This document shows, one piece after another, positions 181 to 6,342 of a stretch of DNA of 9,984 nucleotides; the first letter of the stretch is position 1; each line of letters starts with the position of its first letter. The stretch lies in the IMG/VR virus record IMGVR_UViG_3300014515_000023, one strand, 5' to 3'. Under the pieces are notes generated by a model. That model had not been told where the DNA came from and made no database searches. It was given only the letters and a program-made list of their open reading frames with translations. The translations under genes were made by a program, and so were the position numbers. The stretch is from a virus. Its lineage: Duplodnaviria > Heunggongvirae > Uroviricota > Caudoviricetes.

Positions 181-795
181 ATGCAGAATTTATCTCAACA
201 GTTGTTAGAAGCATATGACAAGGAGTGCCGCAAAGAGCTTTCGATCGCGTTAGCACAGGCTTATCTTCATTCGCATATGAAGGCAAAAGAGTTTGGTTCT
301 TTTTGGGCTCAAGCACAGTCATATTTGCGCTGGTTTTATGCCGATGCATTGCTTGAGAATGCGGCTAAGCGTGTGGGGCTGGATTTTGAAGTCGGTAGCA
401 ATGCTGCTAAAAATTGTAAACACATTGCGATTCACTCGAACAACTGGAAAATGACGGCACATCATTTATCGGGTAATGCGCCACTTCCTAAGCAGGCATT
501 GTATAGAGCTGTTTACGCTAATCAAAATTATGAATTGAATTTTGGGGATGAAAATGCCGACTCCCTGGATGGGAGAGCGTCTGGTGGACATGTTTATATG
601 TTACATGATGGCAGTAATCAGCACTTGTCCAAACTGAATTTAACTGTTCCTTCTTCGGATAATTACGGGATTCTTTATACTGAGTCTTTACCAATTATGA
701 CGATGGTAGAAGTTGAAGCAGAAAATGTGGATTCTGAGATTGAAGATAAAATCAAGATTCTTACCGAACAAATAATTAAATCACAGCAATCATGA
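181..795 (+). CDS. Hypothetical protein, 204 aa, first gene of the cassette; no domain recognised
   Basis: Clean ORF with an RBS and an upstream promoter-like site. Its stop TGA (793-795) overlaps the ATG (792-794) of the next gene, which suggests translational coupling. AT-richer than the flanking phage genes by eye. Acidic C-terminal tail. I recognise no catalytic motif. Confidence 0.75.
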   Translation: MQNLSQQLLEAYDKECRKELSIALAQAYLHSHMKAKEFGSFWAQAQSYLRWFYADALLENAAKRVGLDFEVGSNAAKNCKHIAIHSNNWKMTAHHLSGNAPLPKQALYRAVYANQNYELNFGDENADSLDGRASGGHVYMLHDGSNQHLSKLNLTVPSSDNYGILYTESLPIMTMVEVEAENVDSEIEDKIKILTEQIIKSQQS

Positions 796-1937
796 GCATG
801 AATATCGCACAAACACCATTTACTGATAAATCGTTTAATCCTCGTCGCCTTGAGGAGGCAAGAGAGGCAAAAGGGTTGACGATGGCTGAACTTGCCAGAG
901 TGCTCAATATTTCAAGACAAGCTATTTCGTCATTTGAGAAGGGGTTGAAGTCTCCCTCTGCTGATACACTTTCTGCAATAGCCAAGGTGTTAGGATTTCC
1001 AGAACGATTTTTCTTAGCCTCCAGTGCTTCTCCATCTCTGGAGGGGGCGATTCATTTTAGAAGTCGTTCAACTGCGACCAAAAAGGCTCGAGTTACAGGG
1101 AAAACACGTGGGCGTTGGGCGGCATTAATATTGGATGAATGTCTAAAATATGCTCAATTACCAGATGTGGTTCTGCCTGAATTCGATATTATTGATTTTG
1201 AGGTTCTGTCTCTATCTGATATTGAGGATATGTCCACCCAATTAAGGCGTTTTTGGGGGTTAGGTGATGGTCCAATACTCAATTTAACTAGACTTGTTGA
1301 AAATAAAGGAATCGTGGTTTCTCATTTACCTTCTGGTGAGAAAGTTGATGCCTTTTCGTTCTGGCATAATGGGCGGCCTTTAATTATGTTAGATAGCTCG
1401 AAGACGGCTGTTCGCATGCGATTTAGTCTTGCTCATGAACTTGGCCATTTAATTATGCATAGGGCAGTGGAGGATGACTACCTGAATGATAAAGAATTAT
1501 TCGACCTAGTGGAGTTGCAGGCCGATTATTTTGCCTCCAGCTTTTTAATGCCAGCCACGACTTTCGGGCGTGAATTTTATAGTCCAAATTTATCAGCGTT
1601 AGAACGATTAAAACTACGTTGGATTACATCTATCGGTAGTATTGCCATGAGGAGTCATAGCCTTAAGTTAATTAGCGATAATCAGAAAAGCTATATATTT
1701 AAGCAATTAGCGCCATTCCATCGTAGGGAGCCGTTAGATGATGCAATCCCAAAAGAAGAGCCTGAGTTACTTAATAAGTTACTTTTACTTCTTGATAAGC
1801 ATTCAATCATAAAGGTAACTGAGTTAACTGATATCTTTGCTCTTCCTTTAAATGAGTTATCTGCAATTACACGATTTAAAGAATCAGATATGATTCATTC
1901 TGACAATGTTATTTCATTTACCATAAAACAAAAATAA
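792..1937 (+). CDS. Fused XRE-family HTH and ImmA/IrrE-type (COG2856, peptidase M78-like) zinc metallopeptidase, 381 aa
   Basis: N-terminal segment (residues about 20-75, GLTMAELARVLNISRQAISSFEKG) matches the XRE/Cro-C1 helix-turn-helix pattern. HEXXH zinc motif HELGH at residues 215-219 (nt 1434-1448) sits in the context SLAHELGHLIMH typical of ImmA/IrrE peptidases. A C-terminal extension of about 150 aa has unknown function. Followed by a terminator. Confidence 0.85.
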   Translation: MSMNIAQTPFTDKSFNPRRLEEAREAKGLTMAELARVLNISRQAISSFEKGLKSPSADTLSAIAKVLGFPERFFLASSASPSLEGAIHFRSRSTATKKARVTGKTRGRWAALILDECLKYAQLPDVVLPEFDIIDFEVLSLSDIEDMSTQLRRFWGLGDGPILNLTRLVENKGIVVSHLPSGEKVDAFSFWHNGRPLIMLDSSKTAVRMRFSLAHELGHLIMHRAVEDDYLNDKELFDLVELQADYFASSFLMPATTFGREFYSPNLSALERLKLRWITSIGSIAMRSHSLKLISDNQKSYIFKQLAPFHRREPLDDAIPKEEPELLNKLLLLLDKHSIIKVTELTDIFALPLNELSAITRFKESDMIHSDNVISFTIKQK

Positions 1938-1948
1938 TTCTCATTCAT

Positions 1949-1968
1949 ACCCGCCTCGGCGGGTTTTT
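1949..1968 (+). terminator. Rho-independent terminator downstream of the cassette
   Basis: ACCCGCCTCGGCGGG followed by T5 then GTTTT. Differs by one nucleotide from the hairpin at 84-103. Confidence 0.6.
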
Positions 1969-2043: not shown

Positions 2044-2322
2044 ATGGCGCACGATACCAAATTATACAATTCTGATGATTCTGCCGTCTTTGCCAGCAGG
2101 CGCGGACGGTGTTTTCACGCATTCAAATCTGACTGGTACCAGCATCCCCCATGCACTGAAGAACAGGCCGAATGGCTCATTCAGTGTTACCGCAGGCGCG
2201 GATGCGAGGTTAAAAAAGCCCTTAGCCTCGACTACCGTCACTGGATAATCTCCGTCAGGCTCCCTTACTCCGAACGGCCAGCGCGTCCGTCCCGCACATT
2301 CCAGCAACGGATCTGGAGGTAA
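2044..2322 (+). CDS. Hypothetical phage protein, 92 aa
   Basis: ORF in the same orientation as the operon. Its stop TAA (2320-2322) lies immediately before the GTG start (2324) of the next gene and overlaps that gene's GGAGG RBS. No strong RBS of its own; the reading frame stays open upstream through the terminator, so the true start is uncertain. Confidence 0.4.
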   Translation: MAHDTKLYNSDDSAVFASRRGRCFHAFKSDWYQHPPCTEEQAEWLIQCYRRRGCEVKKALSLDYRHWIISVRLPYSERPARPSRTFQQRIWR

Positions 2323-2323
2323 T

Positions 2324-3379
2324 GTGCGGGTATTACTTCGACCTGTTCTGGTACCGGAACTCGGTCTGGTTATCGTTAAGCCAGGCCGTGAATCAATGTC
2401 AGCATTCCATAACGGCAGAATACTGGTGGAGCCGGAACCAAAAAGCATGCGTAATCTGCCGTCCGGGGTCGTTCCTGCCGCTCGCCAGCCGCTGGTGGAA
2501 GACAAAACATTGCTGCCGTTTTTCAGTAACGCACGGGGGATTCGTGCTGCTGGTGGTGCTGGTGCATTGTCTGACTGGCTGTTGCGCCATATTAAATCCT
2601 GCCAGTGGCCACACGGCGATTATCATCACAGCGAAACCGTCATTCACCGTTATGGTACCGGCGCAATGGTGTTGTGCTGGCACTGCGACAACCAGCTGCG
2701 TGACCAGACATCCGAATCACTCGAGCAACTTGCTCATCAAAACCTGTCAGCATGGATGATTGACGTCATCGGTCACGCAATAAGCGGTACGCAGGAGCGT
2801 GAATTATCTCTGGCTGAATTATCCTGGTGGGCGGTCCGCAATCAGGTGGCGGACGCGCTACCGGAAGCGGTATTACGTCGTTCGCTGGGGTTGCGTGCGG
2901 AAAAAATCCGCTCAATGTACCGTGAAAGCGACATCGTACCGGGAGAGCAGACCGCCACCAGCATACTGAAGCAGCGCACAAAAAATCTTGCGCCGCTGCC
3001 TCACGCCCACCAGCAAAACCCGCCACAGGAAAAGACGGTGGTCAGCATTGCTGTTGATCCGGAGTCACCGGCTCAGTATCTCCAGCGCCAGAAACCACAA
3101 CGGGAAGAGATGCCTGTATACACGCGCTGGGTAAAAACGCAGAAATGCATGACGTGCGGTAATCAGGCAGATGATCCGCATCACATCATTGGTCATGGAC
3201 TGGGAGGGATGGGAACAAAGGCTGATGATTTGTTTGTTATTCCGCTGTGCCGTAAATGTCATAACGAACTGCACGCCGGGGTAAAAGATTTTGAAGAAAA
3301 ACACGGCAGCCAGCTGTTGTTGCTGATTCGTTTTTTAATGCACGCGAGAAATTCGGGTGTCCTGAAGTGGAAAGCATGA
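2324..3379 (+). CDS. DUF968-like (YdfU-like) prophage protein with two Cys/His-rich clusters, 351 aa
   Basis: GTG start preceded by GGAGG (2310-2314). C-terminal cluster C275-x2-C278, H286-H287, H291, C309-x2-C312-H313, H317 (nt about 3146-3274). N-terminal cluster C93, H97, HH101-102, C118-WH-C121. Sits immediately upstream of rusA. The family call is from memory of Qin-prophage YdfU. Confidence 0.65.
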   Translation: MRVLLRPVLVPELGLVIVKPGRESMSAFHNGRILVEPEPKSMRNLPSGVVPAARQPLVEDKTLLPFFSNARGIRAAGGAGALSDWLLRHIKSCQWPHGDYHHSETVIHRYGTGAMVLCWHCDNQLRDQTSESLEQLAHQNLSAWMIDVIGHAISGTQERELSLAELSWWAVRNQVADALPEAVLRRSLGLRAEKIRSMYRESDIVPGEQTATSILKQRTKNLAPLPHAHQQNPPQEKTVVSIAVDPESPAQYLQRQKPQREEMPVYTRWVKTQKCMTCGNQADDPHHIIGHGLGGMGTKADDLFVIPLCRKCHNELHAGVKDFEEKHGSQLLLLIRFLMHARNSGVLKWKA

Positions 3380-3745
3380 ATGACTGAACGCATAGAATTT
3401 GTTTTGCCTTACCCGCCAACGGTGAACACTTACTGGCGACGTCGTGGCAGCACATATTTTGTATCAAAAGTCGGTGAGCGTTATCGCCGTGATGTGGCGC
3501 TTATTGTTCGCCAGCAGCAACTGAAATTAAACCTGTCCGGAAGGCCGGCAATAGAAATTATTGCAGAGCCACCGGATAAGCGCCGTCGTGACCTGGACAA
3601 TATCCTGAAGGCACCACTGGATGTACTGACGCATGCGGGGCTGCTCATAGACGACGAGCAGTTTGATGAAATTAATATTGTGCGCGGTCAGCTTGTTCCT
3701 GGTGGGCGGTTGGGGATAAAAATCACAGAACTGGAGTACGCATGA
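3380..3745 (+). CDS. rusA: RusA-family Holliday junction resolvase, 121 aa
   Basis: Size and motifs match E. coli RusA as recalled: LPYPPTVNTYWRRRG near the N-terminus, the catalytic-region RRRDLDNILKAPLDVL, and GGRLGIKITE near the C-terminus. Stop overlaps the next gene's start (ATGA at 3742-3745). Confidence 0.9.
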   Translation: MTERIEFVLPYPPTVNTYWRRRGSTYFVSKVGERYRRDVALIVRQQQLKLNLSGRPAIEIIAEPPDKRRRDLDNILKAPLDVLTHAGLLIDDEQFDEINIVRGQLVPGGRLGIKITELEYA

Positions 3746-4431
3746 ATAACCAGTATTTACAGTTTGTTCGTGAGCAACTCATGATTGCCACCGCCGATTT
3801 GAGTGGATCAACAAAAGGGCAGCTTGAGGCCTGGCAGGAGAATGCCATGTTTGATACAGGGCGTTACAGGCGTAAAAAAATCCGGTACCGCGATGAAGTG
3901 ACTGGAAAAATGATAACGCGGGATAATCCACCAATCCCGGGAAAGCAATCGCTGGCGAAGGGGGTGTCAATTCCTCTCGTCAGTCCGGTTGAGTTTTCGA
4001 CATCATCGTGGCGGCGGGCTGTTCTGTCTCTTGAAGAACATCATAAAGCCTGGTTGTTGTGGTGTTACAGCGGGAGTATTTGTTGGGAATATCAGATCGC
4101 GATAACGCAGTGGGTGTGGAATGAATTTAAAACCCGGTACGGCACCAGAAAAATTGCAGGGAAAACGCAGGAGCGCGTGAAGAAGTTGATCTGGCTGGCG
4201 GCACAGGATGTCAGAGGATGGATTACCGGGTGTGAGGTCTACCAGAGACAGGAGCTTGCCAGACTGTGTGGAGTTAAGCCTGATAACTGGAGCCATAATT
4301 ATGCGAACTACTGGCGTGAGATGTGCGATATTTTTAAGAGTCTCGATAGAGAATCTGTGATTTGCACCGTGAAAATAAGAGCGCAACAAAAAGCGACTTT
4401 TTCACGACGAGATATTGCAAAAGTCAATTAA
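3742..4431 (+). CDS. Putative late-gene antiterminator Q (phage 82/Qin quuQ-like class), 229 aa
   Basis: Position is canonical: immediately after rusA and immediately before a promoter-like region plus a short-transcript terminator. Translationally coupled to rusA. The family assignment is by synteny and recollection, not by a motif I can verify. Confidence 0.55.
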   Translation: MNNQYLQFVREQLMIATADLSGSTKGQLEAWQENAMFDTGRYRRKKIRYRDEVTGKMITRDNPPIPGKQSLAKGVSIPLVSPVEFSTSSWRRAVLSLEEHHKAWLLWCYSGSICWEYQIAITQWVWNEFKTRYGTRKIAGKTQERVKKLIWLAAQDVRGWITGCEVYQRQELARLCGVKPDNWSHNYANYWREMCDIFKSLDRESVICTVKIRAQQKATFSRRDIAKVN

Positions 4432-4492: not shown

Positions 4493-4523
4493 AAAAAAAA
4501 CTGCCGTCAGGCGGTTTTTTTTT
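4493..4523 (+). terminator. Intrinsic terminator (tR'-like), potentially bidirectional
   Basis: A8 (4493-4500), stem CTGCC (4501-4505), loop GTCA, stem GGCGG (4510-4514), T9 (4515-4523). Confidence 0.65.
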
Positions 4524-6092: not shown

Positions 6093-6168
6093 GGCCCTTT
6101 AGCTCAGTGGTGAGAGCGAGCGACTCATAATCGCCAGGTCGCTGGTTCAAATCCAGCAAGGGCCACCA
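6093..6168 (+). tRNA. ileZ: tRNA-Ile2-like, anticodon CAU (lysidine type), 76 nt with encoded CCA
   Basis: Manual cloverleaf: acceptor GGCCCTT/AAGGGCC, D-arm GCTC-AGTGGTGA-GAGC, anticodon loop CTCATAA, T-loop TTCAAAT, then A-CCA. Closely resembles E. coli ileX as I recall it. A Met identity cannot be excluded from sequence alone. Confidence 0.85.
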
Positions 6169-6175
6169 TCACATA

Positions 6176-6252
6176 CCGCCATTAGCTCATCAGGAAAGAG
6201 CGCCAGCTTTCGAAGCTGGTTGCGCGGAGTTCGGGTCCCCGAAGGCGGTCCA
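6176..6252 (+). tRNA. tRNA-Arg, anticodon UCG, with non-canonical features
   Basis: Anticodon stem CCAGC/GCTGG is perfect with loop TTTCGAA (anticodon TCG). D-arm GCTC...GAGC. The acceptor stem has one A-A mismatch. The T stem has one A-C mismatch. The T-loop TTCGGGT has G at the usually invariant A58 position. Discriminator T, then CCA. Confidence 0.6.
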
Positions 6253-6265
6253 TTATCTGTATCCT

Positions 6266-6342
6266 GCGTTGTTAGCTCAGCCGGACAGAGCAATTGCCTT
6301 CTAAGCAATCGGTCACTGGTTCGAATCCAGTACAACGCGCCA
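6266..6342 (+). tRNA. tRNA-Arg, anticodon UCU, 77 nt with encoded CCA
   Basis: Perfect acceptor GCGTTGT/ACAACGC, anticodon loop CTTCTAA, T-loop TTCGAAT, discriminator G, CCA. Architecture is like E. coli argU. Confidence 0.85.

What the first reader, a model, noticed from the sequence alone, without database searches (positions are those of the whole stretch)
2324..3379. DUF968-like protein with two Cys/His clusters (HNH-like or zinc-finger) adjacent to RusA
The C-terminal pattern CxxC...HH...H...CxxCH (residues 275-317, nt about 3146-3274) and an N-terminal cluster (residues 93-121) resemble zinc-binding HNH-type nuclease signatures. Together with the neighbouring RusA resolvase this suggests a DNA-processing pair in the nin region, yet the family is functionally uncharacterised as far as I know.
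Basis: partly seen in the sequence, partly recalled or inferred. Interest (0 to 1): 0.35.

Follow-up and report, generated by a model that had tools for sequence, protein, structure and literature searches.

The report
Prophage YdfU-type HNH nuclease gene
This is an ordinary, very common lambdoid-prophage gene (YdfU/DUF968 family): its C-terminal end is a zinc-stabilised HNH nuclease domain related to RecA-dependent phage nucleases, and its N-terminal two-thirds is a conserved zinc-binding domain that resembles nothing known.

Summary

**What it is.** The protein is a YdfU/DUF968 family member, up to 99.8% identical at the DNA level to RefSeq-annotated genes. Related DNA occurs in 84% of complete E. 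coli genomes.

**C-terminal cluster.** This is an HNH (His-Me finger) core:
- It matches Pfam HNHc_6 above the curated threshold.
- The AlphaFold2 model shows beta-beta-alpha topology.
- The zinc and catalytic residues are 94-100% conserved.
- It is homologous to two characterised RecA-dependent nucleases, phiNM1 Gp16 and P1 Ref.
- The literature already classed the family as His-Me finger in 2017.

**N-terminal cluster.** This is a conserved four-ligand site inside a confidently folded 225-residue region. That region has no sequence or structural relative, and no HNH signature was detected in it.

**RusA.** RusA is often linked (60 of 80 species-level loci), but its order and spacing vary. 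The usual immediate neighbour is the Q antiterminator.

**Best reading.** An HNH nickase or nuclease acting on phage replication or recombination intermediates, targeted by its N-terminal domain. No experiment on YdfU itself was found.

**Verdict.** A known family with low-to-moderate interest. The N-terminal domain is the only real unknown.

The parts
1949..1964 (+). Intrinsic-terminator-like hairpin (ACCCGCCTCGGCGGGT followed by a T-run). It lies between the RmrA-like gene and the orf92-ydfU-rusA-Q block.
   Evidence: Its role as a nin-type terminator is inferred from position only.
2044..2322 (+). 92-aa ORF of unknown function (PHROG_1212). Its stop codon lies 1 nt before the ydfU start.
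   Evidence: The same gene precedes ydfU in related prophages.
2324..3379 (+). YdfU/DUF968-family CDS, 351 aa, GTG start with a GGAGG ribosome-binding site.
   Evidence: dN/dS is 0.08-0.29 against E. coli-level homologues.
2324..2998 (+). N-terminal region, residues 1-225. It is confidently folded (pLDDT 85.4, pTM 0.70) and has no relative in Pfam, PDB sequences, PDB structures or BFVD.
2600..2686 (+). N-terminal Cys/His cluster. The probable zinc ligands are C93, H101 (H or C in the family), C118 and C121 (C or H in the family). They flank a beta hairpin (105-110, 113-118) and the start of helix 119-125. D122 is 96% conserved.
   Evidence: Zinc binding is inferred, not shown.
2999..3052 (+). 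Low-confidence, probably flexible linker (residues 226-243, pLDDT below 50). It lies just upstream of a recombination (mosaic) boundary with K-12-type ydfU alleles at about nt 3070.
   Evidence: (megablast matches stop at query nt 748)
3110..3376 (+). C-terminal HNH (His-Me finger) domain, residues 263-351.
3146..3274 (+). HNH core. The structural zinc site is C275, C278, C309 and C312. The catalytic set is H286/H287 (end of beta 1), D302 (in the 'N' position), and H313 and H317 (helix).
   Evidence: The residue roles are assigned by alignment to McrA, IscB, Gp16 and Ref, and from general knowledge of HNH enzymes.
3380..3745 (+). RusA Holliday-junction resolvase gene. It starts directly after the ydfU stop codon.
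3742..4431 (+). Q antiterminator gene (PF06323). Its start overlaps the rusA stop (ATGA).

Best explanation
The gene encodes a two-module phage DNA-processing enzyme.

**C-terminal module (residues about 263-351).** This is an HNH (beta-beta-alpha-metal) nuclease. A four-ligand zinc site (C275, C278, C309, C312) holds the fold together. H287, at the end of strand 1, is the likely general base. H286, H313 and H317 are the likely ligands of the catalytic metal. Invariant D302 takes the place of the motif's Asn.

**N-terminal module (residues 1-225).** This is a separate, conserved domain of unknown fold with its own probable zinc site (C93, H/C101, C118, C/H121). A flexible linker joins it to the nuclease. 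It most likely supplies substrate or partner recognition, the role that the NinB-like domain (phiNM1 Gp16) or the basic tail (P1 Ref) is proposed or shown to play in the nearest characterised relatives.

**Expression and role.** The gene sits in the delayed-early block just upstream of Q. I infer that it is expressed with that block, and that the protein nicks or cuts branched or recombinase-bound DNA (D-loops, stalled forks) to promote phage replication and recombination.

**Shown versus inferred.**
- Shown here: domain architecture, conservation, homology of the HNH core, and genomic position.
- Inferred: zinc binding, nuclease activity, substrate, and any dependence on RecA.
For: **HNH assignment**
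- Pfam DUF968 E = 4.9e-64; HNHc_6 31.8 bits, above the 26.6 cut-off.
- PHROG_96 'HNH endonuclease' E = 9e-163.
- AlphaFold2 mean pLDDT 83.3, with beta 284-287, beta 305-308 and alpha 310-318.
- BFVD matches to short DUF968 phage proteins (E = 7e-8, TM 0.78) and to a Ref-like nuclease (probability 0.99).
- hhalign against Gp16: 95%, E = 3.9e-8, with the same CxxC-x8-H ... CxxHH-x3-H spacing.
- hhalign against P1 Ref: 78%, E = 1.8e-5. Against YbcO: 48%, E = 1.8e-4.

**Conservation**
- The catalytic and zinc residues are 94-100% conserved in 109 sequences.
- Both modules are under purifying selection, dN/dS 0.1-0.3.

**Genomic position**
- In 80 species-level loci the gene lies directly upstream of a Q antiterminator in most cases.
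- RusA is within 4 kb in 60 of 80 loci. NinG/Rap is in 0 of 80 and NinB/Orf in 1 of 80.

**Literature**
- PMC5714182 proposes a recombination nuclease role for the family.
- Gp16 and Ref are RecA-dependent HNH nickases (PMC12817073, PMC4330346).
Against: - No experimental data exist for any YdfU-type protein.
- Matches to solved HNH structures are weak, both by sequence (E = 0.08-1.6) and by Foldseek (E > 1).
- The protein does not match Pfam RecA_dep_nuc, and it lacks the N-terminal modules that Ref and Gp16 are shown or proposed to need. RecA dependence therefore cannot be carried over from them.
- Three distant homologues (P0202, P0207, P0228) have lost the HH motif, and another subset has lost three of the four zinc cysteines. 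Catalysis is therefore not universal in the family.
- The gene is widespread in defective prophages and is often truncated or fused by deletions. This is compatible with dispensability.
Confidence: 0.55

Rival explanations
1. It is specifically a RecA-dependent nuclease of the Ref/Gp16 kind. It cuts only DNA bound by RecA filaments (D-loops). This both stimulates phage recombination-dependent replication and damages or arrests host DNA replication.
For: - The two closest characterised HNH modules are both RecA-dependent: Gp16 (95%, E = 3.9e-8) and Ref (78%, E = 1.8e-5). See PMC12817073 and PMC4330346.
- A Ref-like protein is a structural neighbour in BFVD.
- phiNM1 also carries RusA a few genes away from gp16.
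Against: - There is no Pfam RecA_dep_nuc match.
- The N-terminal 262 residues share nothing with the Ref or Gp16 N-termini, nor with NinB or YbcN.
- RecA dependence is a property of whole proteins and has not been mapped to the shared HNH core.
Confidence: 0.25
2. It is an obligate functional partner of RusA. The HNH protein and the resolvase would act as one DNA-processing pair, for example nicking followed by junction resolution.
For: - There is a zero-nucleotide gap between ydfU and rusA in the window.
- RusA lies on the same strand within 4 kb in 60 of 80 loci.
- The related small HNH gene ybcO also sits directly upstream of rusA in DLP12.
- The literature notes the same neighbourhood.
Against: - Order and spacing vary: 20 loci have RusA adjacent upstream, 37 have it further upstream with at least one gene or a gap of more than 100 nt between, and only 3 have it adjacent downstream.
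- 20 loci have no RusA in the stretch held, although 2 of these have almost no upstream sequence.
- The Vibrio, Yersinia, Proteus and Serratia loci, and the K-12 type loci L012-L015, have no RusA.
- Both are ordinary nin-region genes, so linkage may only reflect a shared location.
Confidence: 0.12
3. It is a non-catalytic zinc-finger DNA- or RNA-binding protein that regulates late gene expression together with Q. In this reading the HNH fold is used only for binding.
For: - The most constant neighbour is Q, immediately downstream.
- Rare read-through DUF968-Q fusion proteins exist (P0381, P0456).
- One family member is annotated as a 'phage transcriptional regulator'.
- Some homologues have lost the HH motif.
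Against: - The full catalytic set (H286, H287, D302, H313, H317) is 95-100% conserved. A pure binding module would not need it.
- The fusions are single-member clusters and may be frameshifts or sequencing errors.
- Adjacency to Q is explained by nin-region gene order.
Confidence: 0.08
4. It is a selfish free-standing HNH homing endonuclease, or alternatively a terminase-associated HNH packaging factor of the HK97 gp74 type.
For: - HNH domains are common in both roles (PMC12817073 introduction).
- The gene is mosaic, with a recombination boundary near the linker.
Against: - Its position between the replication genes and Q is conserved across Enterobacterales and Vibrio at 25-50% identity.
- The large N-terminal domain is under purifying selection.
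- The terminase genes lie about 9.4 kb downstream in the matching prophage.
- There is no match to the PHROG or Pfam families of packaging HNH proteins beyond the generic HNH core.
Confidence: 0.05

Closest known systems
E. coli K-12 Qin prophage YdfU and Pfam DUF968 (PF06147); His-Me finger group 7 of Jablonska et al. 2017 (PMC5714182)
   Same: - Same family and same full-length architecture: PF06147 E = 4.9e-64 and PHROG_96 over the full length.
- Near-identical genes are annotated 'DUF968 domain-containing protein / ydfU' in RefSeq and in phage records.
- The published neighbours (RusA, Q, antirepressor) are the same as those found here.
   Different: - The window allele shares the N-terminal 250 residues with the K-12 type but carries a diverged C-terminal HNH allele: dN 0.34 against 0.03.
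- Here the gene is followed by rusA. In the K-12 type loci (L012-L015) the gene directly downstream is not rusA, and no RusA was found within 4 kb.
- Pfam's model starts at residue 160, so residues 1-159 lie outside any described family.
Staphylococcus phage phiNM1 Gp16 (Pfam HNHc_6, PF16784), a RecA-stimulated HNH nickase (PMC12817073, 2026)
   Same: - The HNH module is homologous: hhalign 95%, E = 3.9e-8, 37% identity over 63 columns.
- The layout is the same: CxxC, His nine residues later, then C-x-x-(C/H)-H-x3-H, then a shared 'HA.GVK.F..K' tail.
- Gp16 itself also scores above threshold on DUF968.
- Both are early or delayed-early genes located near replication genes, and RusA is present in the same phage.
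   Different: - Gp16 has a NinB/Orf-like N-terminal domain. The window protein's residues 1-262 show no similarity to it, to lambda NinB or to YbcN.
- The hosts and phage lineages are different.
- RecA dependence has not been tested for YdfU.
Phage P1 Ref, a RecA-dependent HNH endonuclease (PDB 3PLW, Pfam RecA_dep_nuc)
   Same: - The HNH core aligns: hhalign 78%, E = 1.8e-5, covering CxxC ... HH ... PLCR.HH.
- A Ref-like phage protein is a structural neighbour in BFVD with probability 0.99.
- Both have a two-part design: an N-terminal DNA or partner-binding part plus a C-terminal HNH.
   Different: - Ref's N-terminus is a 76-residue disordered basic tail. This protein has a folded 225-residue domain with a zinc site.
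- There is no Pfam RecA_dep_nuc match.
- The genomic context is different: next to cre and c8 in P1.
DLP12 / phage 82 YbcO (DUF1364, PDB 3G27), a predicted treble-clef His-Me nuclease
   Same: - It is the best solved-structure sequence match, although weak: E = 0.077 for the profile, and hhalign 48%, E = 1.8e-4.
- It belongs to the same His-Me finger group.
- ybcO sits directly upstream of rusA, as ydfU does in this window.
   Different: - YbcO is 96 aa and consists of the HNH module only.
- It has AH instead of HH at the catalytic strand.
- Its function is also only predicted (PMC4999995).
Lambda NinG/Rap, a branch-specific endonuclease of the nin region
   Same: - It occupies the same genomic slot, just upstream of Q.
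- It is also classed as a His-Me finger protein.
- NinG is absent from all 80 DUF968 loci examined, which is compatible with functional replacement.
   Different: There is no detectable sequence similarity: hhalign probability 0.8%. Any equivalence is therefore functional analogy inferred from position only.

Membership tests
HNH / His-Me finger (beta-beta-alpha-metal) nuclease superfamily | Two antiparallel strands followed by a helix (beta-beta-alpha topology). | tested here: met
   The AlphaFold2 model has E284-287, E305-308 and H310-318, with block-mean pLDDT above 90 over the strands and helix and 64 for the 291-300 loop. BFVD neighbours are DUF968 or HNH proteins with TM 0.78. Foldseek matches to PDB HNH domains (IscB, Cap5) are only weak, E > 1.
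HNH / His-Me finger (beta-beta-alpha-metal) nuclease superfamily | A catalytic His at the end of strand 1, an Asn/Asp between the strands, and His/Asn metal ligands on the helix. | tested here: met
   H286/H287 are 97% conserved, D302 100%, H313 96% and H317 95% in 109 sequences. They align with the HH ... DN ... CH...H motif of McrA and with IscB, Gp16 and Ref. The 'N' position is Asp here.
HNH / His-Me finger (beta-beta-alpha-metal) nuclease superfamily | A significant match to a curated HNH family profile. | tested here: met
   HNHc_6 scores 31.8 bits for the whole protein and 34.7 bits for the domain alone, against a cut-off of 26.6. The generic HNH profile PF01844 scores only 16.4 bits, below its cut-off.
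HNH / His-Me finger (beta-beta-alpha-metal) nuclease superfamily | Metal-dependent nuclease activity. | not testable with these tools
   This needs purified protein. No published assay on YdfU was found.
Pfam DUF968 (PF06147) | A profile match above the gathering threshold. | tested here: met
   215.9 bits against a cut-off of 27.8, covering residues 160-343.
RecA-dependent nucleases (P1 Ref, PF16786; phiNM1 Gp16) | An HNH core homologous to Ref or Gp16. | tested here: met
   hhalign 78% (E = 1.8e-5) to Ref and 95% (E = 3.9e-8) to Gp16.
RecA-dependent nucleases (P1 Ref, PF16786; phiNM1 Gp16) | A family-specific profile match (RecA_dep_nuc), or the N-terminal module of Ref (basic tail) or Gp16 (NinB-like). 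| tested here: not met
   There is no RecA_dep_nuc hit at E <= 0.01. Residues 1-262 show no similarity to the Gp16 N-terminus, Ref N-terminus, NinB or YbcN; all probabilities are at or below 1.4%.
RecA-dependent nucleases (P1 Ref, PF16786; phiNM1 Gp16) | Cleavage that requires or is stimulated by RecA filaments. | not testable with these tools
   This is a biochemical property.
   hhalign of the N-terminal against the C-terminal domain gives probability 0.5-1.4%. 8 of 100 column shuffles score at least as well. H97, H102, H108 and H120 are poorly conserved. Only the four-ligand site and a hairpin-helix shape are shared.
Lambda NinG/Rap family (PF05766) | Sequence or profile similarity to NinG. 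| tested here: not met
   hhalign probability 0.8%. There is no Pfam NinG hit.
Terminase-associated HNH packaging proteins (HK97 gp74 type) | The gene is adjacent to the terminase or portal genes. | tested here: not met
   In the matching prophage the terminase small subunit gene lies about 9.4 kb downstream, beyond Q, the lysis genes and other genes.

The most novel reading that the evidence does not exclude
The N-terminal 225 residues form a previously undescribed zinc-binding fold. This fold acts as the specificity module of the HNH nuclease, for example by recognising a branched DNA structure, RecA or SSB, or RusA. YdfU-type proteins would then be a third, independently assembled class of 'targeted HNH' recombination nucleases alongside Ref and Gp16. 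In lambdoid phages that lack both lambda functions, they would replace Orf (NinB) plus Rap (NinG).
Probability: 0.3. Interest if true: 0.5.

Novelty: already known. Interest (0 to 1): 0.28.

Why it matters
ydfU-like DNA is present in 4545 of 5426 complete E. coli genomes, with up to 9 places per genome. It is one of the commonest prophage genes that has no tested function.

Its nuclease core is related to RecA-dependent phage nucleases. Those enzymes affect host DNA integrity, the choice between lysis and lysogeny, and antibiotic sensitivity. If YdfU works the same way, it could influence the induction and replication of Stx-converting and other lambdoid prophages.

The practical gain from this analysis is a concrete, testable hypothesis with defined mutant residues. 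It also shows that residues 1-225 are an orphan domain worth a structure determination. Nothing here overturns current understanding.

Tried and rejected
1. **Internal duplication (N-terminal domain as a degenerate copy of the HNH).** By eye, 'LCWHCDNQLR' resembles 'LCRKCHNELH', and hhalign finds that alignment. It is not significant: probability 0.5-1.4%, and 8 of 100 shuffles score at least as well.
2. **N-terminal domain as NinB/Orf-like,** as Curtis 2014 described for Gram-positive 'DUF968' proteins. This is rejected. Gp16, the Staphylococcus representative tested here, now falls in HNHc_6.
3. **Structural neighbours of the N-terminal domain.** Foldseek against the PDB found nothing below E = 1, using both the full model and a separate model of residues 1-225. 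BFVD gave only C-terminal domain hits. A profile search against PDB sequences and Pfam found nothing.
4. **Apparent fusions of the N-terminal domain to tail-fibre, J, portal or capsid domains.** These are chimeric ORFs, not real architectures. The one case checked in a complete genome is a prophage deletion scar.
5. **Defence-system membership.** There is no PADLOC hit for the protein.
6. **Full-length profile against PDB sequences.** No hits. The domain-only profile was needed to recover the weak YbcO, McrA and IscB matches.
7. **Overlapping ORF 2322..2759 in another frame.** I treat it as spurious, because the homology and annotation evidence all falls on the 2324 frame.
Full report
**Observation.** The window carries an ORF at 2324..3379 (+). 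It has a GTG start six bases after GGAGG and lies 1 nt after the stop of a 92-aa upstream ORF. It encodes 351 residues.
- Pfam assigns DUF968 (E = 4.9e-64, residues 160-343). It also assigns HNHc_6 'putative HNHc nuclease' above the curated threshold: 31.8 bits against 26.6, residues 266-327.
- PHROG_96 'HNH endonuclease' matches end to end with E = 9e-163.
- RusA (3380..3745) follows with no gap, and a Q antiterminator (3742..4431) overlaps the rusA stop.

**Origin.** The window is a lambdoid prophage of the ompW-site type.
- Near-identical DNA is annotated 'ydfU' or 'DUF968 domain-containing protein' in phage and RefSeq records. The gene reaches up to 99.8% identity.
- ydfU-like DNA occurs in 4545 of 5426 complete E. 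coli genomes.
- The local gene order is: hokD; an RmrT/RmrA-like pair; a terminator-like hairpin at 1949-1964; orf92; ydfU; rusA; Q; a DNA methyltransferase; three tRNAs; a SASA esterase; lysis genes.

**C-terminal cluster.** Several independent lines show that it is an HNH (His-Me finger) core.
- An AlphaFold2 model built from 45 diverse homologues has mean pLDDT 83.3. It gives strand 284-287, strand 305-308 and helix 310-318, which is a beta-beta-alpha unit. C275/C278 lie before strand 1 and C309/C312 lie at the strand 2-helix junction.
- In 109 homologues down to about 25% identity, C275 and D302 are invariant. C278, H286, H287, C309, H313 and H317 are 94-97% conserved, and position 312 is C or H in 94%.
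- The HNH profile aligns with phiNM1 Gp16 (hhalign 95%, E = 3.9e-8), P1 Ref (78%, E = 1.8e-5) and YbcO (48%, E = 1.8e-4), but not with lambda NinG.
- BFVD structural neighbours are short DUF968 phage proteins (E = 7e-8, TM 0.78, rmsd 1.2 Å) and a Ref-like nuclease.
- Matches to solved structures are weak but consistent in kind: YbcO, McrA, IscB, Cas9 and Cap5.
- Residue roles follow from these alignments and from general knowledge of HNH enzymes. H287 is the general base, H286/H313/H317 are metal ligands, and D302 takes the Asn position.

**N-terminal cluster.**
- C93 and C118 are invariant. Position 101 is H or C in 108 of 109 sequences, position 121 is C or H in all, and D122 is 96% conserved. 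H97, H102, H108 and H120 are variable.
- In the model the four conserved positions flank a hairpin (105-110, 113-118) and the start of helix 119-125. A structural zinc site is therefore the natural reading, but this is inferred.
- Residues 1-225 fold confidently on their own: pLDDT 85.4, pTM 0.70.
- They have no relative in Pfam, in PDB sequences, in PDB structures (best Foldseek E = 1.2, probability at most 0.06) or in BFVD.
- They do not resemble lambda NinB, YbcN, or the N-termini of Gp16 or Ref.
- The idea that this is a degenerate second HNH is not supported: 8 of 100 column shuffles score as well.
- Residues 226-243 are a low-confidence linker.

**Neighbourhood.** I examined 80 loci drawn from a collection with one genome per species, mostly Enterobacterales.
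- The gene immediately downstream is most often a Q antiterminator: PF06530 in 41 loci, PF03589 in 16 and PF06323 in 7. DUF1133 matched 17 of the downstream proteins; I did not check its relation to Q or its overlap with those counts. RusA is directly downstream in only 3.
- The gene immediately upstream is Rha/ANT in 25 loci, RusA in 19 and KilA-N in 10.
- RusA lies on the same strand within 4 kb in 60 of 80 loci. NinG is in 0 of 80 and NinB in 1 of 80.
- More distant loci from Vibrio, Yersinia, Proteus and Serratia keep the position between the replication genes and Q but have no RusA.
- RusA linkage is therefore frequent but neither obligatory nor fixed in order. The constant feature is the nin-type position upstream of Q. 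The absence of NinG and NinB is compatible with YdfU filling that functional slot, which is inference.

**Selection and mosaicism.**
- dN/dS is 0.08-0.29 in both modules.
- Against K-12-type alleles, residues 1-225 are close (dN about 0.03) while residues 263-351 are far (dN about 0.34, dS saturated). Megablast matches to K-12-type ydfU stop at query nt 748. A recombination boundary therefore lies at about residue 250, just C-terminal to the low-confidence linker (226-243).

**Literature.**
- Jablonska et al. 2017 (PMC5714182) placed DUF968 together with DUF1364 in His-Me finger group 7. They named YdfU and YbcO, listed RusA and Q as neighbours, and proposed a recombination or repair nuclease role.
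- Kaur and Subramanian 2016 (PMC4999995) predicted a nuclease function for YbcO and linked it to Ref and HNHc_6.
- Curtis et al. 2014 (PMC4118853) described Gram-positive Orf-HNH fusions that were then filed under DUF968.
- Xu et al. 2026 (PMC12817073) showed that phiNM1 Gp16 is a dsDNA nickase that binds RecA and is stimulated by it. Gp16 inhibits host growth and is needed for phage DNA replication. I confirmed that Gp16 is an HNHc_6 member that also scores above threshold on DUF968.
- P1 Ref cleaves only RecA-bound DNA, and its N-terminal tail anchors it to DNA (PMC4330346).
- No paper reports an experiment on YdfU itself.

**Mechanism proposed.** The protein is a zinc-stabilised HNH nickase or nuclease tethered by a flexible linker to an orphan zinc-binding domain. 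That domain supplies substrate or partner recognition. I infer that the gene is expressed with the delayed-early nin block and that the protein acts on recombination or replication intermediates. I put about 0.55 on this general statement. Within it, I put about 0.25 on RecA dependence specifically. Rivals are an obligate RusA partner (0.12), a non-catalytic regulator linked to Q (0.08), and a homing or packaging HNH (0.05).

**Verdict.** The entity is a known, catalogued family with a published in-silico HNH assignment, so novelty is low. The orphan N-terminal domain and the lack of any experiment on so common a gene give it modest residual interest.

Noticed in passing
window 181-795 and 792-1937 (+): Two overlapping genes match the PADLOC RmrT (E = 7.5e-10) and RmrA (E = 5.5e-102) models. 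The second gene is an HTH plus M78 peptidase protein that also resembles the NCBIfam 'spr1629 family repressor/antitoxin'. Together they look like a prophage-borne toxin-antitoxin or anti-phage defence pair just upstream of the nin block.
   Followed up: partly
window 6417-6607 and 6885-7094 (+): Two full-length copies of the sRNA family STnc100 (Rfam RF02076, 136 and 165 bits) lie downstream of the phage tRNA cluster.
   Followed up: no
window 6093-6342 (+): There is a cluster of three phage tRNAs. ARAGORN calls them Met (CAT), Arg (TCG) and Arg (TCT). RefSeq annotates the first as tRNA-Ile in the matching prophage, so it may be a lysidine-modified Ile2-type tRNA.
   Followed up: no
window 1949-1964 and 4503-4515 (+): Two strong terminator-like hairpins bracket the orf92-ydfU-rusA-Q block. 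One follows the RmrA-like gene and the other lies about 70 nt after Q. The positions are reminiscent of lambda tR2/tR3 and tR'.
   Followed up: no
proteins P0146, P0178, P0180, P0148, P0229, P0174, P0127, P0160; locus L093 5001-6356: Many database 'proteins' join the first 115-300 residues of YdfU in frame to tail-fibre, J, portal or capsid sequence. In a complete E. coli genome, one such ORF sits in a Qin-like remnant (hokD, rem, orf92, chimera, ydfJ). It is therefore an internal prophage deletion scar, not a real domain fusion.
   Followed up: yes
proteins P0381, P0382, P0436, P0456: These 587-607-aa proteins join a complete DUF968 protein to a Q antiterminator (PF03589). They are probably read-through of adjacent genes. 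Each is a single-member cluster, though seen on up to 6 contigs.
   Followed up: partly
window about 3070 (codon about 250), between the linker and the HNH domain of ydfU: There is a mosaic boundary. Against K-12-type ydfU, the 5' 748 nt are close (dS 0.15-0.4) while the HNH-encoding 3' part is saturated. Recombination has therefore shuffled the two modules of this gene.
   Followed up: partly
80 loci L009-L088: Nin regions that carry DUF968 never carry NinG/Rap (0 of 80) and almost never carry NinB/Orf (1 of 80), yet 60 of 80 carry RusA. A Rha/ANT or KilA-N gene is frequently inserted between rusA and the DUF968 gene.
   Followed up: yes
alignment A1: P0167, P0182, P0212, P0214, P0232, P0257; also P0202, P0207, P0228: One subfamily has lost C278 and C312 (and C309 in all but P0212) while keeping the catalytic His residues. 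This gives a zinc-less HNH variant. Three distant members have instead lost the HH motif and are probably inactive.
   Followed up: no
window 7317-9170 (+): A 617-aa protein has DUF1737, a SASA (sialate O-acetylesterase) domain and DUF6645. It sits between the tRNAs and the lysis genes.
   Followed up: no
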